From assembly GCA_016218255.1 (NCBI GenBank), contig JACREN010000002.1, forward strand, positions 4,029 through 68,028: a DNA stretch of 64,000 nucleotides, in the 5' to 3' direction. This DNA is from Candidatus Gottesmanbacteria bacterium (GTDB taxonomy: Bacteria > Patescibacteriota > Microgenomatia > UBA10105 > UBA927). The notes beneath the pieces were generated by a model. That model saw only the letters and a list, made by a program, of their open reading frames with translations. It did not search any database and was not told the DNA's origin. Positions 6,267 to 35,732 of the stretch are shown piece by piece. Positions within the stretch are counted from its first letter, which is position 1. The number at the start of each line of letters is the position of its first letter. Made by a program: the position numbers and the translations under genes.

Positions 6267-6268
6267 AA

Positions 6269-6712
6269 TTACTGAGCGCTTTTGACGCAGTACAACCCCG
6301 TGTATTCACTTGGTGCTGCGGCAGCTGCACAGTCCGTCACCTCATTGGCTTCTCCCTCAAGACCAGCACAAACACAAAAACTTGCAGCACTACAACTGCT
6401 CCATCCCGTGACCGTTGTGTAATCTGTTCCGCTCTTGGGATCAGTCGGCATACCGTTTGGCAAATATGTCACCGCCAGAGTGCAGGTAGCCGGATATGAT
6501 CCTTTATTGTCTGCATAATACTGCTCAAAACCATTCTGCACTTCCTTCAGATCGTTTTTTCGTCTGTTATCACGCGCCTTCTTTTGCCCTGTGGTATACG
6601 CCGAAACTGCGATCGAAACTAAAATCGCAATGACCGATACCGCCACCAATAATTCCATAAGACTAAAACCTATAGAATGTTTCCCCACCATGCGAGTATT
6701 TGAGTTTTCCAT
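6269..6712 (-). CDS. GspG/PulG-like pseudopilin
   Basis: GFSLMELLVAVSVIAIL...ARDNRRKNDLKEVQNGFEQYY; start moved to internal Met so it does not run into pilD. Confidence 0.7.
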   Translation of the reverse strand: MENSNTRMVGKHSIGFSLMELLVAVSVIAILVSIAVSAYTTGQKKARDNRRKNDLKEVQNGFEQYYADNKGSYPATCTLAVTYLPNGMPTDPKSGTDYTTVTGWSSCSAASFCVCAGLEGEANEVTDCAAAAAPSEYTGLYCVKSAQ

Positions 6713-7413
6713 AATATGGTGATAACGGTTCCTAAAATCAAAAAAGGACCGAATGCAACCCGGCTTTTCCACGTTTTATGTCTAGCTTTCATCAGTATGA
6801 CACCCACTCCAGCGCCCGTCAAGAACGCTGCATACAGCGCCACAACGATGCCTGGATACCCCAAAAGCAGCCCGAGCAGAAACACAAGTTTTACGTCTCC
6901 CAGTCCCATTCCTCGTCCGCCAGTCAATAACCAAAGAAGCAGAAAGAACACGGACGCTCCAAACGCGGAAATCCAAAAAACCTGCGCATGACGGACGTCA
7001 AAAACCGACCCAAGAAGACCTACTCCGATAATCCCCACCACCACCATACTGTCCGGAATTATTTGATATTTAAGATCTGCAAAAAAAATAACAATCAATG
7101 AGCAAAAAATAAGAACATATGCTGATAATTTGGTAATCGAATCAGCAAAATAAAAAAACAGCAATGCGAAACCAACACCAGTCAAAAGTTCAATGGCGGG
7201 ATACTGTAGCGAAAGCTTTTTGTGACACCGACGGCACCGGGCGAGCTGGATCACAAACGATACGATTGGAATAAGTTCGTACCACCGGAGCGTTTTTTTA
7301 CAATGATCGCAATGTGACCGACCATATACCACAGATTGCCCCTTTGGTAGCCGGTCGATAAGGACATTAAGAAATGATCCTATACATAACCCAAATAATC
7401 CTGCCAACCACAT
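6670..7413 (-). CDS. pilD: prepilin peptidase (A24 family) PilD
   Basis: N-terminal Zn-binding CIGSFLNVLIDRLP...SHCDHCKKTLRWYELIPIVSF, multi-TM A24 core. Confidence 0.85.
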   Translation of the reverse strand: MWLAGLFGLCIGSFLNVLIDRLPKGQSVVYGRSHCDHCKKTLRWYELIPIVSFVIQLARCRRCHKKLSLQYPAIELLTGVGFALLFFYFADSITKLSAYVLIFCSLIVIFFADLKYQIIPDSMVVVGIIGVGLLGSVFDVRHAQVFWISAFGASVFFLLLWLLTGGRGMGLGDVKLVFLLGLLLGYPGIVVALYAAFLTGAGVGVILMKARHKTWKSRVAFGPFLILGTVITILWKTQILAWWGNIL

Positions 7414-7443
7414 ACATATATCATACCATGATATACTTCAGCC

Positions 7444-11500: not shown

Positions 11501-12009
11501 TACTGGACGCAGAAGTAGCAGTCGGTGCCGCCGGTAGAAGTCTGCGACTTGCACCCGCTGGAGACTACTGCTCCATCTGTGCTATACGTCGTGTTGGTAT
11601 CGATCTGAAAAGATTTGGACTCCGGCTTGAAACAGACTGCCATATGCTCGGGAGCAGTCGAGGTGACCAGGACTTTCGCCAAATTCCCTGTTCCTGCCAG
11701 ATCCATAAACCGATTTTTGAGTTCTCCGGCGTTGATAAGATCAGTAACGTAGCTGCCCATCGTATCGACCCCTGATGCCGTAAACGATGAGCTTGTTCCC
11801 CAAGGAAAATTTCCCTTGGTGGCATAATAGCGGAGATTCGCGTTATAAAATTCTGCCGTGGTATTTCTCAGTGATGTATCACGACCTTTTTTCAATTGCT
11901 CAAATGGATCAATCGTTGCCAATAGTCCTACTGCCAAGGCACCCAGTAACGCAATAACGATAAGAAGTTCAATGAGGGTGAATCCTTTTTTGAGGTGGGC
12001 AGTATTCAT
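11500..12009 (-). CDS. pilA: type IV major pilin (PilA-like)
   Basis: MNTAHLKKGFTLIELLIVIALLGALAVGLLA; C-terminal Cys-rich segment (GCKSQTSTGGTDCYFC). Confidence 0.8.
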   Translation of the reverse strand: MNTAHLKKGFTLIELLIVIALLGALAVGLLATIDPFEQLKKGRDTSLRNTTAEFYNANLRYYATKGNFPWGTSSSFTASGVDTMGSYVTDLINAGELKNRFMDLAGTGNLAKVLVTSTAPEHMAVCFKPESKSFQIDTNTTYSTDGAVVSSGCKSQTSTGGTDCYFCVQ

Positions 12010-12054
12010 AGGTCTTCTTTAGGTGTAACACACACCAAAAACAATTGTCAAGCA

Positions 12055-13266
12055 CTACTTAAACTGACTGGTGAGATTGTAAATGGGCGTAATAACGGAT
12101 ATCACGATAAATCCTACACCGACGCCCAATACGACCATAATAAGCGGCTCAATGGCAGTGGTCAGACCCCTGACAAGGTGCTCAGATTCCGATTCAAAGT
12201 AACGGGATAGCTTGGTAAGCGTATCGTCCAGCTTCCCGGTTTCCTCTCCCACTTTCATCATCTGCGACACAATCGGAGGAAACACCTCATACTGGCCGAA
12301 CGTTTCACCAAGGGGAAATCCTTTTTCCACTTTCTTGGCAATTTCACTGATTGCCTCGCGGAATAAGACATTACCAAGCGAATCCCGTAAGATATTGAGT
12401 CCTTCCAGGATATGTATACCTGCGGTAATAAGCATTGCGAGCGTTCTGGTAAATTCCACCAGAATAATTTTTTTCTGGAGCTCCCCAAAAAGAGGAATGC
12501 GGAGAATGAGGCTGTCCACCAGGTGTTCGCCGACAGACGTTTTTTTCCACCTCATAAATCCGATAGTCCCGCCGACAGACACCAGGATAATAAGCCACCA
12601 AAAATTCACAAAAAATCCGGACAGGGTAATGAGTACCTGAGTAGATGCAGGGAGCGACATCCCGAAATCCTTATACAATTCCGTCAATTTCGGGACAACT
12701 ACGGTCATCATGACCATAACAACCGCCATCATACCGATGACAATGATAACCGGGTAGATCATAGCGCCGGATACTTTGCTCCGGAATTCCCGCTGCGCTT
12801 CCAGTGTCTCGGCAAGCCGCAAAAGCACCTTATCGAGGGTACCCGATGATTCACCCGCATGCACGAGCGCGATATAAATATTGGAAAAATTTGCCGGATA
12901 CTTTGCCAATGAGTCTGCCAAATTACCGCCGCCCACGATCTGGTGTTCCACGTCCAAAAGAATCCGCGCGAATGCCGGATTGGTCGTCTGCGTACGCAAA
13001 ATCGTCAGGGCATCCGGAAGCGAAAGCCCTGCCACAATCATTGTCGATAATTGACGGGTAAAATTGACGATATCACCGAATCCGACCTTTTTGAATTTTG
13101 CCAATAACGCAGACAGCGATAAGTGTTCCTTGGATTCCGTCAATTTAATAACAAAAAGCTGTTTGTCGCGCAATAATTTCGTCGCAACATCACTACCAGG
13201 AGCTTCAACAAGACCGGAAATCGTTTTCCCTGATGTGTCCCGCGCTTTATAGGAAAAAAATGCCAT
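12055..13266 (-). CDS. pilC: type IV pilus assembly platform protein PilC (GspF family)
   Basis: 403 aa, two GspF repeats, 3 TM; N-term MAFFSYKARDTSGKTISGLVEAPGSDVATKLLRDKQLFVIKL. Confidence 0.85.
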   Translation of the reverse strand: MAFFSYKARDTSGKTISGLVEAPGSDVATKLLRDKQLFVIKLTESKEHLSLSALLAKFKKVGFGDIVNFTRQLSTMIVAGLSLPDALTILRTQTTNPAFARILLDVEHQIVGGGNLADSLAKYPANFSNIYIALVHAGESSGTLDKVLLRLAETLEAQREFRSKVSGAMIYPVIIVIGMMAVVMVMMTVVVPKLTELYKDFGMSLPASTQVLITLSGFFVNFWWLIILVSVGGTIGFMRWKKTSVGEHLVDSLILRIPLFGELQKKIILVEFTRTLAMLITAGIHILEGLNILRDSLGNVLFREAISEIAKKVEKGFPLGETFGQYEVFPPIVSQMMKVGEETGKLDDTLTKLSRYFESESEHLVRGLTTAIEPLIMVVLGVGVGFIVISVITPIYNLTSQFK

Positions 13267-13271
13267 ACCGG

Positions 13272-14324
13272 TTAATATTTAAGTAATCTTCCCAGCTCTT
13301 CCGGCCGCACCGCATAGGCTGTCGCTGTTTCTGCACTGATTTTGCCTTCCTTTACCGCGCGGGCAAGCGATGTCTCAAGGGTCATCATGCCCAGCTCTGC
13401 CGATGTCTGGATGACGTTGTCTAAAAGATGTGTCTTGCCTTCCCGAATCGTGTTTCGTACTGCAGGAGTTCCAGTAAGGACTTCTGCCACTGCCACACGG
13501 CCTCCTGCCACTGCAGGAACCAGTCGCTGGGAAAAGACTCCTTCCAGAGCAAAAGAGAGCTGCAGCCGCACCTGGCCCTGCTGGTTCTCCGGAAATACGT
13601 CCACAATACGGTCAATCGTCTGCGCCGCAGAATTTGTGTGCAGCGTGGCAAAGACTAAGTGTCCGGTTTCTGCTACAGTGAGCGCCGCCTGAATCGTTTC
13701 AAAATCACGCATTTCTCCCACCAGCACCACATCCGGATCCTCCCGCAGGACGCTGCGAAGCGCTACCGTCCAGGAATGCGTATCCTGATGCATTTCGCGC
13801 TGGGAAATGATGGAGAATCCCGGCGGATACACATATTCAATCGGGTCTTCAATCGTGACAATATGCGTCGCCTTTGTCTGATTAATGCTTTGAATCATCG
13901 CAGCCAGTGTCGTGGATTTTCCGTGCCCGGTCGGTCCGGTAACTAACACCAGCCCCTGACGCAATCCGACGAACTGTTTGCAAATAGTAGGGAGCCCCAA
14001 CTCATCAATCGATCTGATTTTTGATGGGATGAGCCGAAAATCCGCAGCTACTGTGCCTTTTTGATAGTAAACATTCGCACGAAACCTGCCCACCTGGGTG
14101 GCCACGGAGTAGTCGATTTCTCTATTGGTCAAAAACAATTCCTTTTGCTGGGGAGTAAATGTGGCAAAAACAAGCTGCTCCACGTCGGAAGGGGTCAGTG
14201 CTCCCGTTCCACCGATCGGCCCAAGTTTTCCTGAGACCCGAAGCATGGGTGCAAACCCAACGAGCAAATGGAGGTCTGCCGCTTCCAACCTGGCTGTTTC
14301 CGTAAATAATTGTTGTATATCCAT
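13272..14324 (-). CDS. pilT: twitching motility ATPase PilT
   Basis: Walker A VLVTGPTGHGKSTTLAAMI; PilT-type ...IVTIEDPIEY...; 350 aa. Confidence 0.85.
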   Translation of the reverse strand: MDIQQLFTETARLEAADLHLLVGFAPMLRVSGKLGPIGGTGALTPSDVEQLVFATFTPQQKELFLTNREIDYSVATQVGRFRANVYYQKGTVAADFRLIPSKIRSIDELGLPTICKQFVGLRQGLVLVTGPTGHGKSTTLAAMIQSINQTKATHIVTIEDPIEYVYPPGFSIISQREMHQDTHSWTVALRSVLREDPDVVLVGEMRDFETIQAALTVAETGHLVFATLHTNSAAQTIDRIVDVFPENQQGQVRLQLSFALEGVFSQRLVPAVAGGRVAVAEVLTGTPAVRNTIREGKTHLLDNVIQTSAELGMMTLETSLARAVKEGKISAETATAYAVRPEELGRLLKY

Positions 14325-14325
14325 A

Positions 14326-16068
14326 CTAGTCCTGTGCTACCCTTAGCACTTCTTCAAGCGTTGTCACGCCTTCGATCGCCTTCATGTAGCCGTCCTGCTT
14401 CATCGTTATCATACCGTCATTGATCGCCTGATCTTCTATAGTTTTCATCGGCGTGCGGGCCAATATCAGTTTACTGATTGCCTCAGTCACTGGGAATACC
14501 TCAAACACACCCAACCGCCCGAGATATCCAGATCCGCCGCAGGTACCGCATGGCTGGCCGTCCACCGTTCCTTTGCCCCGGTATAGCTTGATCGGTTTAT
14601 CTTTTTGAAGCAGATTTCCAAGAACCGACGCGATATCTGTTTTCACTGATTCCTCAGGATCATATTCTTCCCGGCACGTCCCGCACACGCGACGGGCGAT
14701 ACGTTGACCAATCACTGCATTGAGGGCAGATGCCACCAAAAACGGCTCAGCGCCCAAATCAAGCAACCGTGGCACCGCACCTGCCGCATTATTTGTGTGG
14801 AGCGTAGAGAAGACCAAGTGTCCAGTCAGAGCAGCCTGTATAGCTAAATCTGTCGTTTCATTATCGCGGATTTCTCCCACAAGAATGATATTCGGATCCT
14901 GCCGCAGAAATGAACGTAATCCCGTCGCAAACGTCAATCCTGCTGTCGGATTTATCTGCACCTGATTGACACCGGCGATTTCGTACTCGACCGGGTCTTC
15001 AAGCGTCATGATATTCACCCGCGATGTATTGAGCTTGGCAAGCACAGCATAGAGCGTCGTGGTTTTGCCGGACCCGGTAGGTCCGGTGACCAGAATAATG
15101 CCATGCGGCCGGAGTACATTTATTTCAAGATTCTTAAGCGCCGTCCCGCGGAGTCCCAACTCCGGAAGCGTCGGAATTCCACCGGATTTCTTCAGCAAAC
15201 GCATGACTATCTTTTCCCCATGGACTGTCGGCAGTGTGGATACACGGAGGTCCACCTCAGAATCACCCATTTTGAAATTAAACCGTCCGTCCTGAGGAAT
15301 ACGTTTCTCGTCAATTTTCATATCCGCCAAAATCTTTATGCGCGATACCACTGCTTCCCGTAATCCCCGGGGAAGCGCAAGTCTCTCCTGCAAAATACCG
15401 TCAACACGATACCGCACGCGGGTATCTCCAATCTGCGGCTCTATATGTACGTCTGATGCACGAAGCCTCATGGCTTGCTCTAAAATCGCGGAAACAATCT
15501 GAGCGATCGGCGCCTCCCGTATGACCTCGCCGAGTTTCCCTGCCTCGTATGTCTTGACCGAAAGCGGAGCAGTCTCAGCCAGCGCCGCAGACACATCCTC
15601 ACCCAAATTTTGGGTATAGACATCTTCAATCGCTGATACAATGTCTTCCTTTGTACCCATAAACGGCAAAACGTGCTTGGCTGACTTTTTTTCCAAAAAC
15701 TCAATCACCTGAAAATCCAATGGATCGAGCATCGCAACAGATAACTCGCCCTTCTTTTCATCAAATGAAAAGGGGACAAGCGTATAGCGCCTCGCGACTG
15801 CTTCGGGGATAAAATTAACAGCATTTGGAGCTATGGCTTTGCCGGCAAGTATCACGAAGGCAATACCCATGGCTTTCGCCCTGGCCGCAACCAGATCGTC
15901 TTCTGTCACCATGTGTTTACGAATTAGTAATTTATCGAGGGCCTCTCCGGAGCTTAAAGACTCCGAGTTAATGGCGTCCGCCTGTTCGCGGGTAAGATGT
16001 TTTTGTTCAACGAGAACACTTAATAAATCAGCACTTGAGGCAGGCATACAAACAAAATCAAAAGGCAA
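14326..16068 (-). CDS. pilB: type IV pilus assembly ATPase PilB (GspE family)
   Basis: N-terminal GSPII_E_N-like domain, Walker A VTGPTGSGKTTTLYAVL, tetracysteine CGTC...CGTCGGSG. Confidence 0.85.
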   Translation of the reverse strand: MPFDFVCMPASSADLLSVLVEQKHLTREQADAINSESLSSGEALDKLLIRKHMVTEDDLVAARAKAMGIAFVILAGKAIAPNAVNFIPEAVARRYTLVPFSFDEKKGELSVAMLDPLDFQVIEFLEKKSAKHVLPFMGTKEDIVSAIEDVYTQNLGEDVSAALAETAPLSVKTYEAGKLGEVIREAPIAQIVSAILEQAMRLRASDVHIEPQIGDTRVRYRVDGILQERLALPRGLREAVVSRIKILADMKIDEKRIPQDGRFNFKMGDSEVDLRVSTLPTVHGEKIVMRLLKKSGGIPTLPELGLRGTALKNLEINVLRPHGIILVTGPTGSGKTTTLYAVLAKLNTSRVNIMTLEDPVEYEIAGVNQVQINPTAGLTFATGLRSFLRQDPNIILVGEIRDNETTDLAIQAALTGHLVFSTLHTNNAAGAVPRLLDLGAEPFLVASALNAVIGQRIARRVCGTCREEYDPEESVKTDIASVLGNLLQKDKPIKLYRGKGTVDGQPCGTCGGSGYLGRLGVFEVFPVTEAISKLILARTPMKTIEDQAINDGMITMKQDGYMKAIEGVTTLEEVLRVAQD

Positions 16069-27310: not shown

Positions 27311-28039
27311 ATGAATCAACTCATTCCGGCAGTTCTTTTATTTTTTGTCGCGCTTTTTACCTACACCAAATTTGCTGGCCCCATCCCATTTTCCATAACG
27401 AGCACTACCACAACCAAAAGTGATACCTTTACGGTGTCAGGGGAAGGGAAAGTAGTTGTTGTACCCGATAGCGCAGTAGTTCACGCCGGTGTACAGACCA
27501 CAGCAGGAACCGCAAAACTTGCACAAGAACAATTAAACAAGGCAGCCAATGCCGTAACTCAAGCAGTCAAGAAGCTGGGCATCGACACCACGGATATAAA
27601 AACTACCAATTATTCTGTCTATCCGATTACCGATTACCAGGATAAGCAACAGCGGATCACGGGCTATCAGGCGTCCAGCAGCCTCACCATAAAAGTCCGC
27701 GATATGGACAAGACGAATAGCGTCATCGACGCAGCCACTGGGGCAGGAGCAAACCAGGTAGGCGGAGTAGTTTTTGAAGTAGCAGATAAATCAAAGGCAG
27801 AAAACGAAGCCAGGGAAAAGGCGGTCTCCGAGGCCAAAAAGAAAGCAAGCGATGCAGCCAGAATTGCCGGATTCCGGCTGGGCAGGATCGTCAATTATAG
27901 CGAAGGATATAATGGCGCACCGCGCCCTATGCCCATTATGGCCAAGGCTGAATCAGCAGATACCGGAGTACCGACTCAGATAGAGCCGGGATCATCCGAA
28001 ATTACCGTGAGCGTAACCCTCTTTTACGAGATACTATAG
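27311..28039 (+). CDS. SIMPL-domain (BP26/DUF541) secreted/anchored protein
   Basis: N-terminal signal anchor; FTVSGEGKVVVVPDSAVVHAGVQT...TTNYSVYPITDY SIMPL pattern. Confidence 0.7.
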   Translation: MNQLIPAVLLFFVALFTYTKFAGPIPFSITSTTTTKSDTFTVSGEGKVVVVPDSAVVHAGVQTTAGTAKLAQEQLNKAANAVTQAVKKLGIDTTDIKTTNYSVYPITDYQDKQQRITGYQASSSLTIKVRDMDKTNSVIDAATGAGANQVGGVVFEVADKSKAENEAREKAVSEAKKKASDAARIAGFRLGRIVNYSEGYNGAPRPMPIMAKAESADTGVPTQIEPGSSEITVSVTLFYEIL

Positions 28040-28082
28040 GTCTTGCTCGCTTCTCCCCAGGGCAGTACAATAATGCGACTCC

Positions 28083-28676
28083 ATGGGAAGAAGCCATATT
28101 ACACCAATTCATCAACCAGACGATACGACGTGTGGGCCATCGGCCCTGAAACTTGCGTTGGAAATTTTTGGCAAGCACAAATCACTAGACACGCTGATCG
28201 AGCTTTGCAAGACAAACAGCAGCGGCACCACCACTCCGAACCTCATTGCCGCAGCGAACAAACTTGGCTATTCTATTCTGGCTGTCGAATATGCGACGCT
28301 ACACCACCTGCAGGGCGCGCTCAAATACCCGCCCAACCGGCCGCGTGCAGCTCTCGTGACATACCTCTATGATCTGGATGAAAAGGAAAACCCCCATCCC
28401 GATTCCGGTCACTGGGCTGTCGTCTGTTCTTATTCAGCCAGAAGCAGCCGCATTGTACTTCTGGACAGCGCCAGCGGAAAGAAAAAATCATACAAATGGG
28501 AAGATTTTCGGGAGCGCTGGATGGATTATGATCTCAAACGGAAAAAAATCAAAAAACGCGGAAAAAAATATAAAATGATCCGCCATTGGCAACAGCAGCC
28601 ACTTATTATTCTCGCAAAAAAAGAAAGCGATTTGCCGAAATTTAAAATCTCGACAGCTAAACTATTTACGCCATAA
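28083..28676 (+). CDS. standalone papain-fold C39-like cysteine peptidase with Lys-rich C-terminal tail
   Basis: Q..TTCGPSALKLALEIFG (Gln oxyanion + catalytic Cys) and SGHWAVVCSY (catalytic His); tail KRKKIKKRGKKYK. Confidence 0.6.
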   Translation: MGRSHITPIHQPDDTTCGPSALKLALEIFGKHKSLDTLIELCKTNSSGTTTPNLIAAANKLGYSILAVEYATLHHLQGALKYPPNRPRAALVTYLYDLDEKENPHPDSGHWAVVCSYSARSSRIVLLDSASGKKKSYKWEDFRERWMDYDLKRKKIKKRGKKYKMIRHWQQQPLIILAKKESDLPKFKISTAKLFTP

Positions 28677-29658
28677 ACCGTCTCAGCGAAGACGCAACAA
28701 TTTCCCAGATAAAATCGGCAAATGACAGCCCCACTGCTTTATATGACACGGTCATGCCGTACTCGTCGCTGTCTCCCAGTCCCGGATTCGCGTTGGCTTC
28801 GAGAACAAAAATGTCCTCTCCGCGGCTCCGGATATCCAGCCGCGCATAGTCACAAAACTCAAACGTTCTCATGCAAGCCCAAGCGATACGATCAAGATTT
28901 ACAGAAAATGCCGGCGCCAATAATGCGAGTTTAACATGAGACAGAGAATACTCTGCATGCTCCTCATTCCAACGGCTGTTAAACGTCAGGAAAGCGTCCT
29001 CTTTGCCCTGATGATCAAACATTATTTCACTCGCAGGCAAGACCGCCCACCCATCTTTACGGGATAAAAGCGTGACCTGAAACTCACGCCCGCCTATGTA
29101 TTCCTCCACGATGACCGGCTGTCCGAATACACGAATCCGCTCCTGTACGACCGGTACCAACGCAAGGGAATCCCTAACCACTGCATCTTTTGTAAGTCCA
29201 ATACTACAATGCTCGAGAGCCAATTTCACAATGACCGGATAGTGAAAATCAGGGCGAACCGATTCTTTTCCCGTTTCAAAAACTTGCCAACGGGGGGTCG
29301 GGATACCCGCTTTATCCATCGCATGCTTCATTCCAACCTTATCGCTTGTTCGATCAAATACGCCAATACGTGACCCGGTAAATGGAATATGCGCTGCCTC
29401 AAGCCTTGTGTACACCATACGCGCCAGTGGCAAATCAAAACCGTCCCACTCAATAAGATTAAAGATGCAGTCCGCCTTTATGGAACTGATAGCGTCGATC
29501 CCATCTTCATGAACAGGCACCAAAAATGATTGTCCGCCTTTTCCTAAAATGGCCGCTGCAACTTCTTCGGCAGAATCTTTCGTATCCTCATCCGTGGATT
29601 TATACGGGCTGGCAATGGCCCGCTTGGTGGGGAGACTATAAAGGACGGCAATACGCAT
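28666..29658 (-). CDS. ATP-grasp ligase, D-alanine--D-alanine ligase family (divergent paralog)
   Basis: Ddl-like blocks IPFTGS, YPVIVK, QPVIVEEYIGGREFQVTLL, ARLDIRSRGEDIFVLEANANPGLG; N-terminal Gly-rich loop of canonical Ddl not recognisable. Confidence 0.6.
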   Translation of the reverse strand: MRIAVLYSLPTKRAIASPYKSTDEDTKDSAEEVAAAILGKGGQSFLVPVHEDGIDAISSIKADCIFNLIEWDGFDLPLARMVYTRLEAAHIPFTGSRIGVFDRTSDKVGMKHAMDKAGIPTPRWQVFETGKESVRPDFHYPVIVKLALEHCSIGLTKDAVVRDSLALVPVVQERIRVFGQPVIVEEYIGGREFQVTLLSRKDGWAVLPASEIMFDHQGKEDAFLTFNSRWNEEHAEYSLSHVKLALLAPAFSVNLDRIAWACMRTFEFCDYARLDIRSRGEDIFVLEANANPGLGDSDEYGMTVSYKAVGLSFADFIWEIVASSLRRFMA

Positions 29659-30941
29659 TATTTTTTTATCAATTTATACCCACGGGTCTTTACGGTCAAA
29701 ACTTCATAGCTGCTTTTTTGGTCCTTAAGCTTCGACCGAACCCGAGCGACCAGCCGGTCAATCGCCCAATCCGACACACCCATGTCTTTGGATTCCGGCC
29801 AGACTGCTTCTATGATCGCATCCCGCTCGCAAAGATCTCCTAGATGAGATTGAAGAAATGAAACGAGCGAATGTTCCTTTTTTGTAAATTCTCCATTACC
29901 TGATCCAGTTGCCAATGTCCCAAGATATTGCGCAAATAACGAGCTAAAAATATGTTGCTTCCCTTGTGTTTCTGAAACGATACCGGTGTTCCACAGATAC
30001 GACGCGGTCCGCCGCATAGTGATATCAATAGCATCACCCCGCGCAGCAGCAATCACGGTTTCTTTTTCTATCTTTGTCAGACTCTCAAATAATTCTTCAG
30101 ACAGCAATTGAATCTGTTCATCTCCCACAAGATACGTCAAAAGATCAGGCGGTGGATTTTTCTCTTCTTGCAGCCGAAGAATCGCAAGATGTAGGTACTG
30201 CACATGACCGCCGGAAAGAATGACAAGCGCATCTCTCACGTCTTCGGTAAAACTCGTGTGATATCGCTCAGCAAGCGTACCAAAAATAATCTTCATATCC
30301 CCGGGCTTTGCAGGAGTCAAAAACATATCGCGGGCAAATACAGAAAGCACGGATTTCGGGAATACGCGGGGAGACAAGTCGTAGAGCGGCCGGTAACTGG
30401 TGAACACATATGACAACTTCTGATGGGCCGCTTCTTTAAGTCCCTGCAGATTATTAAAAAATTCCTGGCTTGCAACATCACTCATCCGGTCAAAACGGAT
30501 CAGGAAAATAGTAGGATATAGCCCACCCGCAACTATCTCCGCTAATACTTTCTGCACACTATCCACCGTAAAGAATAAATCTTTCAGCTGAATGCTTTGC
30601 ACAAAGAGCCTCCGGCACTGTCGTTTGACCGCCTCCGGCAGGGGAGAGCCCTGAACACTGTCCACAAGACGAGTTAAAAGAAGCGTCCAGAAGGGCACGA
30701 TATTCCGTTCTACCAGATCATTTAAATCAACGGTAATAAAGAGGTGCGGCGTGCCATTTCTTATATAAATGGATCCGATATCCTCGTGATAGAGGAAAAA
30801 CCGGAGAAAATTACTGATACCTACTCGTTTGGCGCCGATGAGAACCACGGAATCATGATGTGCAAGGCTTTCTCCCAATTTCCGTGCATCAGCGGCACGA
30901 AATTCAATCGGATACGAGGCTTCGGTCACGCGTTTTGTCAT
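29658..30941 (-). CDS. putative transcriptional regulator: N-terminal degenerate P-loop NTPase-like domain + C-terminal OmpR/PhoB-type winged helix
   Basis: VVLIGAKRVGISNFLRFF (Walker-A-like, Lys replaced) near N-terminus; C-terminal SLVSFLQSHLGDLCERDAIIEAVWPE...DWAIDRLVARVRSKL...TVKTRGYKL matches trans_reg_C wHTH; 1-nt overlap with downstream ATP-grasp gene. Confidence 0.55.
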   Translation of the reverse strand: MTKRVTEASYPIEFRAADARKLGESLAHHDSVVLIGAKRVGISNFLRFFLYHEDIGSIYIRNGTPHLFITVDLNDLVERNIVPFWTLLLTRLVDSVQGSPLPEAVKRQCRRLFVQSIQLKDLFFTVDSVQKVLAEIVAGGLYPTIFLIRFDRMSDVASQEFFNNLQGLKEAAHQKLSYVFTSYRPLYDLSPRVFPKSVLSVFARDMFLTPAKPGDMKIIFGTLAERYHTSFTEDVRDALVILSGGHVQYLHLAILRLQEEKNPPPDLLTYLVGDEQIQLLSEELFESLTKIEKETVIAAARGDAIDITMRRTASYLWNTGIVSETQGKQHIFSSLFAQYLGTLATGSGNGEFTKKEHSLVSFLQSHLGDLCERDAIIEAVWPESKDMGVSDWAIDRLVARVRSKLKDQKSSYEVLTVKTRGYKLIKK

Positions 30942-30992
30942 GATCTCGATTGTAGCGGCTTAAGAGGGAAGATACAAGAAAATCAAATAACC

Positions 30993-31439
30993 TTATGAGC
31001 CGGGCAACGAATCGTATGCGTATATGACCTCATCTTCTTGGAGTTCATTCAATATTAAAATTGTTTGGCGTCTTGCTTCCGCTCCATGGCCTTTAACCGG
31101 CAAATCAAGAACAGACGACTCGCCTGAGACAAGTGCTATCCACCGAGCTTGATCTGAATCCCATGTGATGGTGAGATTTGCTGAATCGACCGCAGGAGGA
31201 TCAGACACCTTAAGACAGTTGATCGCTTGTCTATGCTCCGGATCAATATAAGTCAAATCTGCCCACGCCTCTTCGCTCCCCAAACCCGTAAATCGAACGT
31301 CCTCTCCGATACGCACTATATGCGTTCCTGCAATTTTACAGGTTCGAGCGAATCTTGCTCCCTCGGTCGGCAACTGTGCCTCATCTAATGCGTAAATCAA
31401 TCCAGAATATTGATAAAGCTCCGTCTTCACTTGGCTCAT
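30993..31439 (-). CDS. hypothetical protein (first gene of minus-strand operon)
   Basis: ORF with no recognisable motifs; start set at internal Met; co-directional and closely spaced with regulator gene. Confidence 0.4.
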   Translation of the reverse strand: MSQVKTELYQYSGLIYALDEAQLPTEGARFARTCKIAGTHIVRIGEDVRFTGLGSEEAWADLTYIDPEHRQAINCLKVSDPPAVDSANLTITWDSDQARWIALVSGESSVLDLPVKGHGAEARRQTILILNELQEDEVIYAYDSLPGS

Positions 31440-31618
31440 ATATGCAGTAGAGCATACCAGGAAATGGCCAAAAAGCAAGCCCCACGGCCCTTTGTCAGAA
31501 AGATGTCAGGAAAAGATATGAAGCCTGTCAAGGACAACGCAACGTACCATCATATAATTCATTTACGAACGTGTGTTGGCCACCACTGGACACGCTAACA
31601 GCTATCCTTTACCATAGA

Positions 31619-33289
31619 ATGCATCCTGAAACCTTAACTCAACGCATAGCAATTATGGGCGAATCCGCGGACTCCGACAGACCACCTGTTTCATCACACC
31701 TTCCGGACATCGTTGAGACACCGATCACAAATAGTAATCCGTATTACGACTTCAATGACATCCTTGAACCTGCCATAAAGAAATATGCCGCTGCTTTCGG
31801 AGGCGGCGGACCGGGAGAGCCTACTGATACAGAAAAAAGCGCAAGACACTTACATTTTATTCTCACCACCAAAAGACAACTCAGTACGGACTGGGATCAT
31901 ACCATCGTTGATAGCAAACCGATTTTTGATGATGATATAAAAATAACCGCAAGAGAAGGGTATCTGCCAATTGAATTAGAGAATATCGACCTCCTATGTC
32001 TATTGGCATTAACGGGAACAGCAGTGAATATAGAAACCGGAAAAGGAGCTAACGCATGGCGCTGGGCAATGTACATCCAAGAGCGATTGGATCTTATTGC
32101 CACAAAATTAGGAAACAAAAGGCACGACAAACTTGGCAGCCCATTTCACAACAGACTTCTAACGCTTCATGACAACCAACCAGTAGTCTTTACCTACACA
32201 TCCAGCAATGGAGCCAGATCTATTGATCTCTTATCGAATCAAATCATTATAGACAAGCCTATTCCGCTTACCGCCTGGGAGAGACTCCAGAAACATGGCG
32301 ATCTTCTTCGTGACTCAACGCTCCCACAGCAATTGGAAAGAATACAAAAACGCCGCAATCATTTTGGAAGCGTGACACTGGACTCTCCGGTTATGACCCC
32401 ACGCGTAAAATATGATGAAACTAAAGATCATTATGCGCTGGATCGGGTTAAGGGCATACAGGTACCAGTCACCAATCAGGTGTCACCAGACAATTATGAA
32501 CCTATTATTCGATATCAAGATCTAACCCGCGAGGTCGACCAGCAACTGTCAGAACCCGAGCTCAATCACCGCATGCAGCTCCAGGCAGATATCCGGGATT
32601 TTGCGGTCTTTATCGCAGGAGAAAGCACAAAAGCAAACCTGGTTCTAGATATTCAAAAAATCAAAAATGATCCAACGCTCAATTCCCGTTGGGAACAAAC
32701 AACCGGCATTCATATAACCGATAACGCGACGCTCTATCACGCAGTCCAAGCTTTGTTTAGAGATACCGGAGTCAAAATTTTTCAGGCACATGCACAGGGA
32801 ATCACCTATTTCGATATCGGTGCAATAGACAAACAAAATAGTTCTCGAAAGGTAAAAAATTATACCCAGGGCCTTCTGCGATGCTGGATGAGAGAGATAC
32901 ACGGAATAGAAGACGAATCCGTAGCGCCGGAAATCCCAAAGTTTTTCACAACAAGCCTGGGCGATGCACCTCCAACGACTGAGAATGAATTTACCAACGA
33001 TGCCCCAATGATAAGCCATACCGGAGGGGTAAACGTCGGACCGTTTGATGATACACAAATTAAAAAAAGAAACGGTTGGCCAATGAATCTCAACGCGCTG
33101 TGTCCACAAGCAAAAAATATACAACTCACACACTGGTATCTGATGCAACTTCTTGTGGGAAGTGTGCAGGAACAATACCTTTCAAAGACAGTCGATGCGT
33201 TTATTGCTATCCTTGCATCGCTCCGACAAGAAAGAAGAACGGCTTTGAAAGAAACATCTGTAATTGGAAAAACATCTAGTGTACAATAA
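31619..33289 (+). CDS. hypothetical protein, 556 aa, no recognisable domain
   Basis: Long intact ORF, soluble, no TM/signal; overlaps downstream hexokinase-family gene start; divergent from 30993-31439 operon. Confidence 0.55.
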   Translation: MHPETLTQRIAIMGESADSDRPPVSSHLPDIVETPITNSNPYYDFNDILEPAIKKYAAAFGGGGPGEPTDTEKSARHLHFILTTKRQLSTDWDHTIVDSKPIFDDDIKITAREGYLPIELENIDLLCLLALTGTAVNIETGKGANAWRWAMYIQERLDLIATKLGNKRHDKLGSPFHNRLLTLHDNQPVVFTYTSSNGARSIDLLSNQIIIDKPIPLTAWERLQKHGDLLRDSTLPQQLERIQKRRNHFGSVTLDSPVMTPRVKYDETKDHYALDRVKGIQVPVTNQVSPDNYEPIIRYQDLTREVDQQLSEPELNHRMQLQADIRDFAVFIAGESTKANLVLDIQKIKNDPTLNSRWEQTTGIHITDNATLYHAVQALFRDTGVKIFQAHAQGITYFDIGAIDKQNSSRKVKNYTQGLLRCWMREIHGIEDESVAPEIPKFFTTSLGDAPPTTENEFTNDAPMISHTGGVNVGPFDDTQIKKRNGWPMNLNALCPQAKNIQLTHWYLMQLLVGSVQEQYLSKTVDAFIAILASLRQERRTALKETSVIGKTSSVQ

Positions 33290-33296
33290 CCTCGAT

Positions 33297-34373
33297 ATGA
33301 TGAAATTTTCTACCCTCCAAACCATTACCGATAATTTTTATAAAGAGCTCCAATTGGCAAAAGCCGGAAAAAAAACGAGCCTGCCGTTTATCAAACACCA
33401 GCTTTCACTCACTCCCAAAGTAAAAAAAGGCGAGGTATTTCAGGTGCTCCGCATCGGCGGATCCATATACCAAAATGCACTGGTGAAACGGATCAACGGC
33501 AAAATCGCCATCGAGCGAAGTGCCCAGCGGCCATTGCCGGTATTTAGAACCCAGGAAATTTTTCTCTCCTTCATCGATCGGGTACTGGATAAATCCGTCA
33601 ATCATCTGGCACTCAACTTCGCCTATCCCATGAAGCCGCTATCCCGTGACGGGTATCTGGACGGTACGCTGGTATCAGGCAGCAAAGAACATGAATTTGC
33701 AGGCCTCGTGGGCAACGCAGTAGGAGAGACGATTGAACGATATATCAAAGACAAACAGAAGCGCACGATCCATACGGCTCTAGCCAATGACACAGTATGC
33801 CTGCTTCTGTCCGGGCTTACCCAATTTCCAAAAAACAATCTCGTCGCCGGCATCATCGGCACCGGACTCAATTTTGCGATATTCTTAGATGAACAAACCC
33901 TCGTCAATTTGGAGTCGGCAAATTTTGACAAATTTCCACAAAGCCAGGAAGGCAAACTCATAGACCAGGGATCCAATCACCCGGGGTCGTCACTGTTTGA
34001 AAAAGAAATTTCCGGCGGCTATTTATACAAAAACTTTAACATCCGCTTAGCCAAAGAAGGACTGGGGTACCCGAACGTTTCTTCAACCAAAGAAATGGAC
34101 AAGGTAGCCTTTAACGACATCCCCAAAGTGTCACTGCTTGCCCGTGAAGTATCTGAACATTCTTCATCGCTCGTGGCCTGCCAGATAGCTGGCATTACAA
34201 AATTGTATAACCGCGACTGCACGGTCGTTATTGAGGGCAGTTTATTCTGGAAAGGGTACCGGTACAAAGAAAACGTCGGCGTCGTATGCCGCCAGCTTGA
34301 ACCGGATCACCAGGTCTCCTTCGTCTTCGTCGAAGAAAGCGGGATTTTAGGAGCAGCGAAACTCATTTCGTGA
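33297..34373 (+). CDS. hexokinase-family sugar kinase
   Basis: Hexokinase signature blocks: VLRIGGSIYQNALV (phosphate-1), LALNFAYPMKP (LGFTFSFP-like), HTALANDTVCLLLSG (connect-1), AGIIGTGLNFAIF (phosphate-2), SGGYLYKN (adenosine). Confidence 0.7.
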   Translation: MMKFSTLQTITDNFYKELQLAKAGKKTSLPFIKHQLSLTPKVKKGEVFQVLRIGGSIYQNALVKRINGKIAIERSAQRPLPVFRTQEIFLSFIDRVLDKSVNHLALNFAYPMKPLSRDGYLDGTLVSGSKEHEFAGLVGNAVGETIERYIKDKQKRTIHTALANDTVCLLLSGLTQFPKNNLVAGIIGTGLNFAIFLDEQTLVNLESANFDKFPQSQEGKLIDQGSNHPGSSLFEKEISGGYLYKNFNIRLAKEGLGYPNVSSTKEMDKVAFNDIPKVSLLAREVSEHSSSLVACQIAGITKLYNRDCTVVIEGSLFWKGYRYKENVGVVCRQLEPDHQVSFVFVEESGILGAAKLIS

Positions 34374-34376
34374 CCG

Positions 34377-34779
34377 GTTTGTCATTGCGAGGAGTCTTCG
34401 ACGAAGCAATCTCTTGTTTATGAGTGTCCATCACTACTTTGTATATATAATGACAAATGTAGTTCATACAACCCTGTATACTGGCGTTACTAATCATTTA
34501 ACTCGAAGAGTATTTGAACATAAATTCCATCAAGGCCCGTCATTTACATCCAAATATAAAGTAAACAGACTTATATATTATGAAATATTTACTGATATTC
34601 GAGAGGCAATACAACGAGAAAAGCAAATCAAAGCGGGTTCAAGACAGAAAAAAATTGACCTTATTCGTTCTATGAATCCTGGATGGGAAGATTTATTTAA
34701 GAAAATAATTGCCTAAATCTACTATCGGAGTAATCAAACAAGAGATTGCCGCGTCACTTCGCTCCTCGCAATGACAAAC
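34377..34779 (+). mobile_element. about 400-bp element with terminal inverted repeats carrying a GIY-YIG nuclease ORF
   Basis: Perfect 18-bp TIR GTTTGTCATTGCGAGGAG (34377-34394) / CTCCTCGCAATGACAAAC (34762-34779) plus inner 14-bp IR GCAATCTCTTGTTT (34406-34419) / AAACAAGAGATTGC (34736-34749); fills the whole hexokinase-xerC intergenic gap. Confidence 0.6.
34420..34716 (+). CDS. GIY-YIG nuclease family protein (small, YhbQ/UPF0213-like)
   Basis: FVYIMTN...LYTGVTNHLTRRVFEH (GIY..YIG, Arg, Glu catalytic pattern); about 98 aa. Confidence 0.75.
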   Translation: MSVHHYFVYIMTNVVHTTLYTGVTNHLTRRVFEHKFHQGPSFTSKYKVNRLIYYEIFTDIREAIQREKQIKAGSRQKKIDLIRSMNPGWEDLFKKIIA

Positions 34780-35732
34780 TATTTCCGGTGAAATTTTGTG
34801 TGAATTTCGCGAAGTTGCGGATTCGTAATGTGTGTATACACTTGCGTTGTGGCAACATTTTTATGCCCCAGCATTTCCTGGATCGCGCGAAGATCCGCAC
34901 CGCCGTGCAGAAGATCTGTCGCAAAACTGTGGCGGAGCCCGTGCGGGGTAATTTTTATGGGCAGCCGGGCTTTTTTCACATATTTTTCCACTAACCGTTG
35001 GACGCTTCGGGCAGTCAGCCGCAACGACTCGCCGCTGGTCTCGCCTTCAACCGGTTTTTTTCCGGAATACCGGATGAATATGGGCTTTCCATCATCTTCG
35101 CGGCCGGACAGATATCGCCGCAACCACTCAGCCGCACTGTCTGATAAAAATACCACGCGCGGCCTGCGGCCTTTACCGATGACGCCGAATTCTTTGCGGT
35201 CCAGATTAATCTGGTCGCGATTGAGTGATACAAGCTCTGATACACGAAGTCCTGTGGAAAACAACACTTCCAAAATCGCTTTGTCCCGCAAACCCTCGGG
35301 CGTTGAAATTTCCGGCATATTGAGCAACCGATCCACCTGCTCACGTTCAAGAAATTTTATGGAACGGCTTTCTGCTTTCGGCAGTTCAATGGTTTCTGGA
35401 GCAAGCGTTTTGACGCCGTGCCGTGTGAGATATTTGAGAAACGACCGGAGGGCAATCAGATGATAATTTTGCGTCACGCGCTTGAGCGATATGCCATGAG
35501 GATCAACGAAACGGGAAAGAAATAAACGGTATTCATGAATCGTATCGGGGGTAATAGCAGAAAGCGGAATAGTTTTCACAGGAGTTTTCACGGATGGAGC
35601 AGAGGAGTCTCCTCTAAGAAATCTCAAAAACCGCTCTAAATAGTGCCGATAGTTGCGGATCGTGAGCCGGGAAACATTTTTCTCAATTTCGAGGTATTCT
35701 AGAAAGTCTTGGATATATTGCTCAAGATTCAT
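34779..35732 (-). CDS. tyrosine site-specific recombinase XerC/XerD family
   Basis: N-terminal SAM-like core-binding domain; catalytic box HGLRHSFATDLLHGGADLRAIQEMLGHKNVATTQVYTHI. Confidence 0.85.
   Translation of the reverse strand: MNLEQYIQDFLEYLEIEKNVSRLTIRNYRHYLERFLRFLRGDSSAPSVKTPVKTIPLSAITPDTIHEYRLFLSRFVDPHGISLKRVTQNYHLIALRSFLKYLTRHGVKTLAPETIELPKAESRSIKFLEREQVDRLLNMPEISTPEGLRDKAILEVLFSTGLRVSELVSLNRDQINLDRKEFGVIGKGRRPRVVFLSDSAAEWLRRYLSGREDDGKPIFIRYSGKKPVEGETSGESLRLTARSVQRLVEKYVKKARLPIKITPHGLRHSFATDLLHGGADLRAIQEMLGHKNVATTQVYTHITNPQLREIHTKFHRK

What the first reader, a model, noticed from the sequence alone, without database searches (positions are those of the whole stretch)
28666..31478. 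Operon of a hypothetical protein, a P-loop plus OmpR-wHTH regulator and a divergent D-Ala-D-Ala-ligase-family ATP-grasp enzyme, away from any mur/cell-wall genes
Seen in sequence: three co-directional genes with a 1-nt overlap between the regulator and the ATP-grasp gene. The ATP-grasp protein keeps the Ddl C-terminal catalytic blocks (EEYIGGREF, LEANANPG), but its N-terminal substrate-1 region is unlike housekeeping Ddl.

Established knowledge: Ddl paralogs such as VanA and dipeptide-antibiotic ligases use altered substrates.

Inference: this is a regulated accessory ligase making a non-canonical dipeptide or depsipeptide, possibly for cell-wall remodelling or a small peptide product.
Basis: partly seen in the sequence, partly recalled or inferred. 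Interest (0 to 1): 0.6.

Follow-up and report, generated by a model that had tools for sequence, protein, structure and literature searches.

The report
Uncharacterised Ddl-like ligase in Gottesmanbacteria
The gene is a real, intact relative of the cell-wall enzyme D-alanine–D-alanine ligase, but it belongs to a large uncharacterised sister group with a different substrate pocket, and the regulator next to it is a recent neighbour that belongs to a sugar-kinase block.

Summary
The described genes exist on the minus strand of a Candidatus Gottesmanbacteria (CPR) contig:
- an orphan ORF of 148-161 aa
- a 427-aa AAA+-like plus OmpR-type wHTH protein
- a 330-aa ATP-grasp protein, whose start overlaps the regulator's stop by 1 nt (TAATG)

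The ATP-grasp protein keeps every ATP, Mg and phosphoryl-transfer residue of Ddl. It lacks the D-Ala-binding residues and scores far below the Ddl cut-offs (101 bits against 243). A neighbour-joining tree separates it from DdlA, DdlB and VanA/B/G in 200 of 200 bootstraps. It falls in a very large uncharacterised Ddl-like clade (1447 cluster representatives at E<=1e-30) that includes GNAT fusions.

The "regulated operon" reading is not supported by comparative context. In most Gottesmanbacteria the gene upstream is xerC. The regulator travels with hexokinase-like genes and can lie about 140 kb away in the same genome.

The only invariant neighbour is a convergent stand-alone C39-like cysteine peptidase, adjacent in all 32 loci. 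That lineage is syntenic overall, and one related genome keeps the peptidase without the ligase.

The substrate is unknown. I could not test whether a canonical ddl exists elsewhere in these genomes. Verdict: an ordinary but uncharacterised paralogous ligase of modest interest.

The parts
28666..29658 (-). ATP-grasp ligase of the Ddl superfamily, 330 aa (NCBI HY948_00240). It belongs to an uncharacterised clade that has K/R-W where DdlB has K215-Y216.
   Evidence: - Pfam Dala_Dala_lig_C, 4.7e-18.
- NCBIfam Ddl models score 101 and 90 bits, below their cut-offs.
- AF2 model with pLDDT 87; best PDB fold match is DdlB 8evy, TM 0.78, 25% identity.
- Residue mapping against DdlB.
- Tree.
28083..28676 (+). 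Stand-alone C39-like cysteine peptidase, 197 aa. It converges on the ligase gene with an 11-nt 3' overlap and is the only invariant neighbour of the ligase.
   Evidence: - Pfam Peptidase_C39, 2.2e-11.
- C17, H110 and D128 are near-invariant (>=98%) and Q11 is conserved in >=90% of 122 aligned sequences.
- Adjacent and convergent in all 32 loci with a Gottesman-type ligase; the 3' ends overlap in 20 of them.
29658..30941 (-). Regulator of 427 aa: an AAA+/ORC-like N-terminal part with a deviant Walker A, plus an OmpR-type wHTH. It is translationally coupled to the ligase in this genome.
   Evidence: - Pfam Trans_reg_C, 8.8e-13, residues 351-424.
- AF2 model with pLDDT 91.8.
- Foldseek best matches are PAB2304 (2qen), Orc/Cdc6 proteins and SSO1545.
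- Motif conservation.
- Genomic contexts.
30993..31478 (-). Orphan ORF: 161 aa from the TTG start, or 148 aa from the ATG at 31439 as NCBI annotates it (HY948_00250). It lies in the enlarged intergenic region between the regulator and the divergent 572-aa gene.
   Evidence: - No Pfam, NCBIfam or PADLOC hit.
- Singleton cluster.
- No tblastn hit in any related locus.
- In L040 the corresponding spacer is only 155 nt.
31571..33289 (+). Protein of 572 aa with no recognisable domain, divergent from the regulator. It occupies a slot that holds a large but unrelated or hyper-diverged protein in other genomes.
   Evidence: - No family hit.
- Proteins in the same position in L040, L036 and L038 have no Pfam hit, and the pairs compared (window vs L040, L036 vs L040) show no BLASTP similarity.
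33264..34373 (+). Hexokinase-like sugar kinase, a conserved companion of the regulator.
   Evidence: - Pfam Hexokinase_2 at 2.8e-16 and Hexokinase_1 at 2.7e-07.
- Orthologues at 47-76% identity lie near the regulator in L036, L037, L040 and L041.
34414..34716 (+). Small GIY-YIG domain protein at the edge of the inserted block.
   Evidence: Pfam GIY-YIG, 4.3e-14.
34779..35732 (-). XerC/D-type tyrosine recombinase. It is the ancestral upstream partner of the ligase gene and is separated from it here by the inserted block at 29658-34716.
   Evidence: - Pfam Phage_integrase, 1.2e-43.
- In 24 loci xerC lies upstream of the ligase, abutting or overlapping its start in many of them.

Best explanation
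The 330-aa protein is an active ATP-grasp carboxylate-amine ligase of the Ddl superfamily, but it is not a D-Ala:D-Ala or D-Ala:D-Lac ligase. It is the Gottesmanbacteria branch of a very large, uncharacterised sister clade of Ddl.

Mechanism (inferred from the family chemistry): ATP and Mg2+ bind between the central and C-terminal domains. A substrate carboxylate is phosphorylated to an acyl-phosphate. A second substrate then attacks it, giving an amide (less likely an ester) plus ADP and Pi.

Substrates (inferred): both substrate sites are rebuilt. The first site uses the invariant motifs YSLPTxRA, DEDTxDSA and NLIEWxGxD in place of E15 and the HGxxGEDG motif. The lid carries R229-W230 in place of K215-Y216. 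C151 replaces S150. Acidic residues (D296, D/E298, E/D299) plus Y300 replace S281 and L282, which hold the D-Ala2 carboxylate in DdlB. I therefore infer a nucleophile that is not a simple alpha-amino acid carboxylate and is probably cationic or peptide-like. The identity of both substrates is unknown.

Expression: the gene follows whatever lies upstream. Ancestrally that is xerC. In this subclade it is the AAA+-wHTH gene, which arrived with a hexokinase-like sugar-kinase block inserted between xerC and the ligase. The regulator is therefore most likely not a dedicated regulator of the ligase.
For: Shown:
- All catalytic residues are kept in 20 of 20 family members: K97, K144, E180, E187, R255, D257, E270 and N272 (DdlB numbering). 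The substrate residues are replaced.
- The fold is that of Ddl: pLDDT 87, TM 0.78 to DdlB.
- Ddl and Van HMM scores lie far below their cut-offs.
- The profile search gives 1447 representatives at E<=1e-30 with a smooth score continuum. Members include C-terminal GNAT fusions and tandem ATP-grasp proteins.
- W at the position of DdlB Y216 is near-universal among the listed representatives of that clade.
- The NJ tree separates the canonical Ddl/Van clade in 200 of 200 bootstraps. The window protein is 20-24% identical to canonical enzymes, whereas DdlB and VanA are 31% identical.
- The clade includes proteins from Rhodanobacteraceae (L034) and Sinorhizobium pNGR234a (L048). By established knowledge these taxa also have a canonical ddl.
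- Context: xerC is upstream in 24 loci and the regulator in 6. The regulator and the ligase lie about 140 kb apart in GCA_040960095.1. The regulator sits with hexokinase-like or other sugar-kinase genes in three different genomic settings.
- One related genome (L038, a 1.22-Mb contig) has regulator -> <- C39-like with no ligase between them.
Against: - No substrate evidence of any kind. The residue-based inference about the nucleophile is weak, and the N-terminal alignment to DdlB is uncertain. D25 could play the role of E15.
- I could not check whether a canonical ddl, murF or alr exists elsewhere in any Gottesmanbacteria genome. A lineage-specific replacement of the housekeeping Ddl is therefore not excluded.
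- The gene is single-copy, strongly conserved and embedded among housekeeping genes, as an essential gene would be.
- The 1-nt overlap with the regulator gene means the two are probably co-transcribed in this genome, so some shared regulation is possible here.
Confidence: 0.65

Rival explanations
1. The ligase and the convergent C39-like cysteine peptidase form a two-gene ligase/hydrolase (or ligase/transferase) module specific to Gottesmanbacteria. One enzyme builds and the other trims or transfers an amide-linked group: a peptide tag, a small peptide or a cell-wall side chain. Known parallels, recalled from my own knowledge, are glutathionylspermidine synthetase/amidase and BtrJ/BtrH.
For: - The two genes are adjacent and convergent in all 32 loci with a Gottesman-type ligase. 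Their 3' ends overlap by 4-50 nt in 20 of them.
- Both families look essentially lineage-restricted. The C39-like search gave 333 hits from only 436 candidates, and all 120 listed are at least 66% identical.
- The peptidase keeps its Q, C, H and D catalytic residues. It is more conserved (54-92% identity) than the ligase (44-73%).
- A sister CPR subfamily fuses the ligase to a 450-aa domain with an invariant Cys.
- A distant paralogue in L015 sits near an AstE/AspA-type deacylase gene.
Against: - The two genes are on opposite strands and belong to different transcription units (folD-SIMPL-C39 and xerC-ligase).
- The whole gyrB-gyrA-folD-SIMPL-C39-ligase-xerC region is syntenic in this narrow lineage, so adjacency carries little information.
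- L038 keeps the peptidase with no ligase at the site.
- More distant ligase homologues (L029, L031, L033, L034) have no C39 gene nearby.
Confidence: 0.2
2. It is the housekeeping D-Ala-D-Ala ligase of Gottesmanbacteria, highly diverged, and the only Ddl in these genomes.
For: - It is present as a single conserved copy at the same syntenic site in the 32 loci recovered.
- It lies among housekeeping genes.
- Its best sequence and fold matches in the PDB are all Ddl.
- Its catalytic residues are intact.
- No other ddl was seen in about 600 kb of Gottesmanbacteria DNA examined, although nearly all of that is this same region.
Against: - It scores 101 bits against the 243-bit cut-off.
- The D-Ala-binding residues are replaced by other invariant residues.
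- It groups with a paralogous clade that co-exists with canonical Ddl in Proteobacteria, with the split supported in 200 of 200 bootstraps.
- It is absent at the site in L038.
- Other housekeeping proteins of the same contig (GyrA, FolD, PGK) match their families normally.
Confidence: 0.1
3. One reading: the AAA+-wHTH protein is the dedicated regulator of the ligase, and the three genes form one regulated operon.
For: - The TAATG overlap couples the two genes in the window.
- The regulator and the ligase are adjacent in six loci of the closest relatives, with gaps of 0-102 nt.
Against: - The adjacency is confined to one subclade. xerC is the upstream gene elsewhere.
- In GCA_040960095.1 both genes exist but lie about 140 kb apart.
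- The regulator family is Microgenomates-wide, with 1572 hits including Levybacteria. That is far wider than the ligase family.
- The regulator always sits beside hexokinase-like or other sugar-kinase genes.
- The orphan ORF has no homologue anywhere.
Confidence: 0.1

Closest known systems
D-alanine--D-alanine ligase (DdlA/DdlB, EC 6.3.2.4)
   Same: - Three-domain ATP-grasp fold (TM 0.78 to P. aeruginosa DdlB).
- All ATP, Mg and phosphoryl-transfer residues are kept.
- Similar length.
   Different: - 20-24% identity.
- No Dala_Dala_lig_N match.
- Below every Ddl HMM cut-off.
- Equivalents of E15, H63, E68, S150, Y216, S281 and L282 are replaced.
- No mur or fts neighbours.
VanA/VanB/VanG D-Ala-D-Lac and D-Ala-D-Ser ligases
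   Different: - In the tree the Van enzymes sit inside the canonical Ddl clade, and this protein lies outside it.
- Van HMMs score 19-42 bits against cut-offs of 495-775.
- No vanH, vanX or vanRS genes are nearby.
Uncharacterised Ddl-like clade annotated 'D-alanine--D-alanine ligase family protein' or 'ATP-grasp domain-containing protein', including ATP-grasp-GNAT fusions
   Same: - Shares K/R-W at the lid, E-[HD]-x-S and NNP motifs.
- The HMM score continuum runs from 463 to 195 bits.
- Groups with these proteins in the tree.
   Different: - The Gottesmanbacteria branch has its own invariant residues (EHC, EWxGxD, DxxEYG).
- It has no fused domain.
- It has a fixed C39-like neighbour.
MysD, the Ddl-like ligase of mycosporine-like amino acid biosynthesis (reviewed in PMC10666671; relationship recalled, not tested)
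   Same: A Ddl homologue that has been given a non-cell-wall ligation role.
   Different: - No MAA genes are present here.
Ligase/cysteine-amidase pairs: glutathionylspermidine synthetase/amidase; BtrJ with the C39-like BtrH (own knowledge)
   Same: An ATP-grasp ligase is associated with a papain-fold cysteine enzyme.
   Different: - Here the two genes are separate, convergent and not co-transcribed.
- No biochemical link has been shown.
- The association is restricted to one syntenic lineage.

Membership tests
D-alanine--D-alanine ligase (TIGR01205 / NF002378) | Whole-protein score above the curated HMM cut-off | tested here: not met
   NF002378 scores 101.4 bits against a cut-off of 243. TIGR01205 scores 90.4 bits against 245.65.
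D-alanine--D-alanine ligase (TIGR01205 / NF002378) | N-terminal Dala_Dala_lig_N domain with E15 and the HGxxGEDG motif | tested here: not met
   No PF01820 hit. In the alignment E15 becomes T/A, H63 becomes E/D and E68 becomes L. The alignment of this region is uncertain.
D-alanine--D-alanine ligase (TIGR01205 / NF002378) | ATP-grasp catalytic residues K97, K144, E180, E187, R255, D257, E270 and N272 | tested here: met
   All are conserved in 20 of 20 family members.
D-alanine--D-alanine ligase (TIGR01205 / NF002378) | D-Ala-binding residues S150, K215-Y216 and S281-L282 | tested here: not met
   These are C151, R229-W230 and D/E298-E/D299; C151, R229 and W230 are invariant and positions 298-299 are mostly acidic in the family.
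D-alanine--D-alanine ligase (TIGR01205 / NF002378) | Groups with housekeeping Ddl in a phylogeny | tested here: not met
   The canonical Ddl/Van clade excludes it in 200 of 200 NJ bootstraps. The tree is small, with 7 canonical sequences.
D-alanine--D-alanine ligase (TIGR01205 / NF002378) | D-Ala-D-Ala synthesis; the only Ddl in the genome | not testable with these tools
   Whole genomes could not be read and no assay was possible.
VanA-type D-Ala-D-Lac/Ser ligases | Score above the Van-specific HMM cut-offs; vanH, vanX or vanXY neighbours | tested here: not met
   Scores are 19-42 bits against cut-offs of 495-775. No such genes occur in the window.
ATP-grasp superfamily, Dala_Dala_lig_C (PF07478) | Pfam score above the gathering threshold and an ATP-grasp fold | tested here: met
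   65.9 bits against a threshold of 24. The fold search gives Ddl structures at E of about 1e-21.
Uncharacterised K/R-W clade of Ddl-like ligases | W at the position of DdlB Y216, E-[HD]-x-S, the NNP motif; clusters with the clade | tested here: met
   Signature table over the 150 representatives. Tree.
OmpR/PhoB response regulators (for the 427-aa protein) | Receiver domain plus a Trans_reg_C wHTH | tested here: not met
   Trans_reg_C is present at 8.8e-13 but there is no Response_reg domain. The N-terminal part has an AAA+/ORC-like fold.
AAA+/Arch_ATPase-like P-loop NTPases (for the 427-aa protein) | P-loop NTPase fold with a GxxxxGK[ST] Walker A and an hhhhDE Walker B | tested here: inconclusive
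   The fold matches 2qen, 2fna and Orc/Cdc6 proteins. Walker A is GxKRVGIS with no Lys, and Walker B is RFDR; both are conserved. The AAA_35 Pfam hit reaches only E=0.019.
Peptidase C39 (for the convergent 197-aa protein) | Pfam score above threshold; catalytic Cys and His with an oxyanion Gln; usually the N-terminal domain of an ABC exporter | tested here: inconclusive
   PF03412 scores 44.2 bits against a threshold of 22. Q11, C17, H110 and D128 are conserved. The protein is stand-alone and has no ABC transporter part.

The most novel reading that the evidence does not exclude
The ligase and the near-invariant cytoplasmic C39-like peptidase are a Gottesmanbacteria-specific system. It would add and remove (or transfer) an amide-linked group on a protein, peptide or cell-wall precursor. 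That would be a new ligase/cysteine-peptidase modification cycle in CPR bacteria.
Probability: 0.15. Interest if true: 0.6.

Novelty: new member of a known kind. Interest (0 to 1): 0.3.

Why it matters
If the assignment is right, databases that label this family 'D-alanine-D-alanine ligase' mislead metabolic reconstructions of CPR cell-wall synthesis. JGI and some NCBI records do use that label.

The wider clade is one of the larger ATP-grasp groups for which I found no assigned substrate, with more than 1400 clusters at 50% identity. A tightly conserved, single-domain member from a minimal genome would be a convenient entry point for finding that substrate.

The finding itself is not surprising to a specialist. 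Ddl-like paralogues of unknown function are common.

Tried and rejected
- Canonical ddl elsewhere in the genome: I could not answer this. No tool reads whole genomes.
- Defence-system models (PADLOC): no hit for any of the seven genes at 28083-34716.
- Homology between the window's 572-aa protein and the 450-aa domain fused to sister ligases: an HMM of that domain hit only L029, so I rejected the idea.
- Identity of the 450-aa fused domain, the 572-aa protein and the orphan ORF: Pfam at E<=10 gave nothing.
- Promoter and terminator scans of 27900-31700: counts were about 1 to 2.4 sd above the shuffled means, with no clearly placed functional site. A TTGACC-17-TAAATT site lies 13 nt upstream of the ligase ATG but is uninformative.
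- Graspetide or RiPP reading (ATP-grasp plus C39): rejected. The ligase is a full three-domain Ddl-type enzyme. Precursor-peptide ORFs were not searched for, and the two genes overlap in the window.
- First tree script: timed out. I redid it with a faster distance routine.

Full report
**What is there**

The window is a Candidatus Gottesmanbacteria (CPR/Patescibacteria) contig. The 330-aa protein is identical to NCBI HY948_00240.

Three ORFs lie on the minus strand:
- 30993-31478
- 29658-30941 (427 aa)
- 28666-29658 (330 aa)

The last two share one base, TAATG.

The 330-aa protein contains the quoted blocks VEEYIGGREFQV and VLEANANPGLG. It matches Pfam Dala_Dala_lig_C only (65.9 bits, residues 114-321), with no Dala_Dala_lig_N.

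The 427-aa protein has a C-terminal Trans_reg_C wHTH (8.8e-13).

The first ORF has no family hit. NCBI annotates it as 148 aa, it is a singleton in the 15-billion-protein collection, and no homologue was found in any related locus.

No mur, ddl or fts gene was found among the ORFs scanned by Pfam in the 64-kb window. tblastn with E. coli DdlB hits only this gene.

A stand-alone C39-like cysteine peptidase gene (28083-28676, +; Pfam 2.2e-11) converges on the ligase gene with an 11-nt overlap.

**Is it a Ddl?**

By fold it is. An AF2 model (pLDDT 87) matches DdlB, DdlA and VanA structures, best 8evy at TM 0.78 and 25% identity. By sequence the best PDB match is also DdlB, at only 8e-14.

By family criteria it is not. 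The Ddl models NF002378 and TIGR01205 give 101 and 90 bits against cut-offs of 243 and 246. Van-specific models give 19-42 bits against cut-offs of 495-775.

I aligned 20 family members with DdlB:
- Kept in all members: every ATP, Mg and transfer residue (K97, K144, E180, E187, R255, D257, E270, N272).
- Replaced, mostly by other conserved residues: E15 to T/A, H63 to E/D, E68 to L, S150 to C151, Y210 to L, K215-Y216 to R229-W230, and S281-L282 to acidic residues.

The N-terminal part of this alignment is uncertain.

I built a neighbour-joining tree with DdlA, DdlB, two plasmid Ddl proteins, VanA, VanB and VanG. It also included the window protein, its orthologues and representatives of the wider group. 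The canonical Ddl/Van clade separates from everything else in 200 of 200 bootstraps. The window protein is 20-24% identical to canonical enzymes, whereas DdlB and VanA share 31%.

**The wider family**

A profile search of 1.84 billion cluster representatives found 15,610 proteins at E<=1e-3 and 1447 at E<=1e-30. Scores fall smoothly from 463 to 195 bits over the first 150.

This group nearly always has K/R-W where DdlB has K215-Y216, E-[HD]-x-S where DdlB has EGSS, and NNP where DdlB has N-[ST]-SP.

It contains several architectures:
- C-terminal GNAT fusions of about 500-545 aa
- tandem ATP-grasp proteins of 640-730 aa
- in a sister CPR branch, an N-terminal 450-aa domain of unknown family, which is a separate upstream gene in L029

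Members occur in Omnitrophota, Rhodanobacteraceae, Wallbacteria and on Sinorhizobium pNGR234a. The proteobacterial hosts also have a canonical ddl, by established knowledge. The window protein is therefore a member of a paralogous, uncharacterised Ddl-like clade, not a diverged housekeeping Ddl or a Van-type enzyme. No member I could identify has a known substrate.

**Context and the 'operon'**

A scan of GTDB species genomes returned 32 loci, nearly all Gottesmanbacteria.

tblastn of the window's genes shows a conserved order: gyrB, gyrA, folD, (SIMPL), C39-like, ligase, xerC. The C39-like gene is convergent with the ligase in every locus that has enough flank. The 3' ends of the two genes overlap by 4-50 nt in 20 of 32 loci.

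The upstream gene is xerC in 24 loci, abutting or overlapping the ligase start in many of them. It is the 427-aa regulator only in the closest relatives (L001, L003, L004, L018, L040, L041).

The regulator family is much wider. It has 1572 hits at 50-86% identity, including Levybacteria.

Its contexts are informative:
- It is always divergent from a large protein with no Pfam hit, beside hexokinase-like or other sugar-kinase genes.
- That block sits in three different genomic settings. In L036 it lies between rplA and rplJ.

In GCA_040960095.1 the regulator lies at about 990 kb and the ligase, with xerC and the C39-like gene, at about 840 kb of the same contig.

In L038, a 1.22-Mb contig, the regulator converges directly on the C39-like gene and the ligase is absent from the site.

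The window's arrangement is therefore best read as an insertion. The block at 29658-34716 carries the regulator, the orphan ORF, the 572-aa protein, the hexokinase-like gene and the GIY-YIG gene. It was inserted between xerC and the ligase.

The two genes are probably co-transcribed here, but the regulator's conserved business is with the sugar-kinase block.

**The regulator**

An AF2 model (pLDDT 91.8) matches the archaeal Walker-type ATPases PAB2304 (2qen) and SSO1545 (2fna), and Orc1/Cdc6 proteins. The 'P-loop' fold is therefore real.

The family-wide Walker A is GxKRVGIS, with Ile where the Lys should be. Walker B is RFDR. Pfam sees only a sub-threshold AAA_35 match.

It is not a two-component response regulator, because it has no receiver domain.

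**The C39-like protein**

It is 197 aa with no signal peptide evident by eye and no ABC transporter part. C17, H110 and D128 are near-invariant (>=98%) and Q11 is conserved in >=90% of 122 sequences.

It is more conserved (54-92% identity) than the ligase (44-73%). Its family looks restricted to this lineage.

A functional ligase/peptidase pairing is attractive, but the support is weak:
- It rests only on adjacency in a lineage where the whole region is syntenic.
- The two genes are in different transcription units.
- L038 shows the peptidase without the ligase.
- Distant ligase homologues lack a C39 neighbour.

**Conclusion**

Most likely (0.65) this is an active ATP-grasp amide ligase of an uncharacterised Ddl-sister clade, with substrates other than D-Ala plus D-Ala/D-Lac. 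It would be expressed through coupling to whatever gene lies upstream.

Three steps are inferred rather than shown: the acyl-phosphate mechanism, the amide product and a cationic or peptide-like nucleophile.

Rival readings and my confidence in each:
- a ligase/C39 module, 0.2
- the sole, diverged housekeeping Ddl, 0.1
- a dedicated wHTH-regulated operon, 0.1

It remains the most useful next computation.

**What led nowhere**

- PADLOC gave no hits.
- The 572-aa protein is unrelated to the domain fused to sister ligases.
- Promoter and terminator scans were uninformative, with counts only modestly above the shuffled means and no interpretable site.
- Literature searches on CPR ddl returned nothing usable.

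Noticed in passing
window 31571-33289; L040 6130-7845; L036 5943-7961; L038 4439-6364: A large protein (570-670 aa) with no Pfam hit always sits divergently from the conserved AAA+-wHTH gene, beside sugar-kinase genes. The pairs compared (window vs L040, L036 vs L040) show no BLASTP similarity. Either the slot holds unrelated proteins or the protein evolves extremely fast.
   Followed up: partly
L036 4156-10827: A block is inserted between rplA and rplJ inside the nusG-rplK-rplA-rplJ-rplL cluster. It carries hexokinase-like, inositol-phosphatase, 672-aa, AAA+-wHTH, response-regulator and 368-aa genes. This suggests that the block moves as a unit.
   Followed up: no
L038 9293-9304 (also L039): In a related 1.22-Mb genome the AAA+-wHTH gene converges directly on the C39-like gene, and the ATP-grasp gene is cleanly absent from the site. 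I do not know whether the ligase lies elsewhere in that genome.
   Followed up: partly
L015 5802-9996: A second, distant ATP-grasp paralogue (8962-9996, 28% identity) lies in tandem upstream of the Gottesman-type ligase. With it are an AstE/AspA-type zinc deacylase gene (7729-8409), two ORFs that look GIY-YIG-like by eye (not scanned) and a split large serine recombinase (5802-7336), in the place where other genomes have xerC.
   Followed up: partly
L029 2488-5512; proteins P0378-P0384: In a sister CPR subfamily the ATP-grasp is fused to, or directly preceded by, a domain of about 450 aa. That domain has an invariant 'CQT' motif, a 'YPGL' motif and no Pfam match. In L029 a SET-domain gene follows.
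   Followed up: partly
window 4369-16068: Type IV pilus gene set: three pilin-like proteins with N_methyl motifs, a PilD-type A24 prepilin peptidase, a PilC-type T2SSF protein and two T2SSE ATPases. Large membrane glycosyltransferase-like proteins (YfhO, TMEM260-like) are interspersed.
   Followed up: no
window 30942-31570: The spacer between the regulator and the divergent 572-aa gene is 630 nt here, against 155 nt in L040. It holds the orphan 148-161-aa ORF, which has no homologue anywhere. The ORF may be spurious or a very young gene.
   Followed up: partly
L013 19341-20983; L038 12247-14765: gyrB (L013) and gyrA (L038) are split into two or three ORFs in long-read MAG chromosomes. These are probably assembly frameshifts rather than biology.
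   Followed up: no
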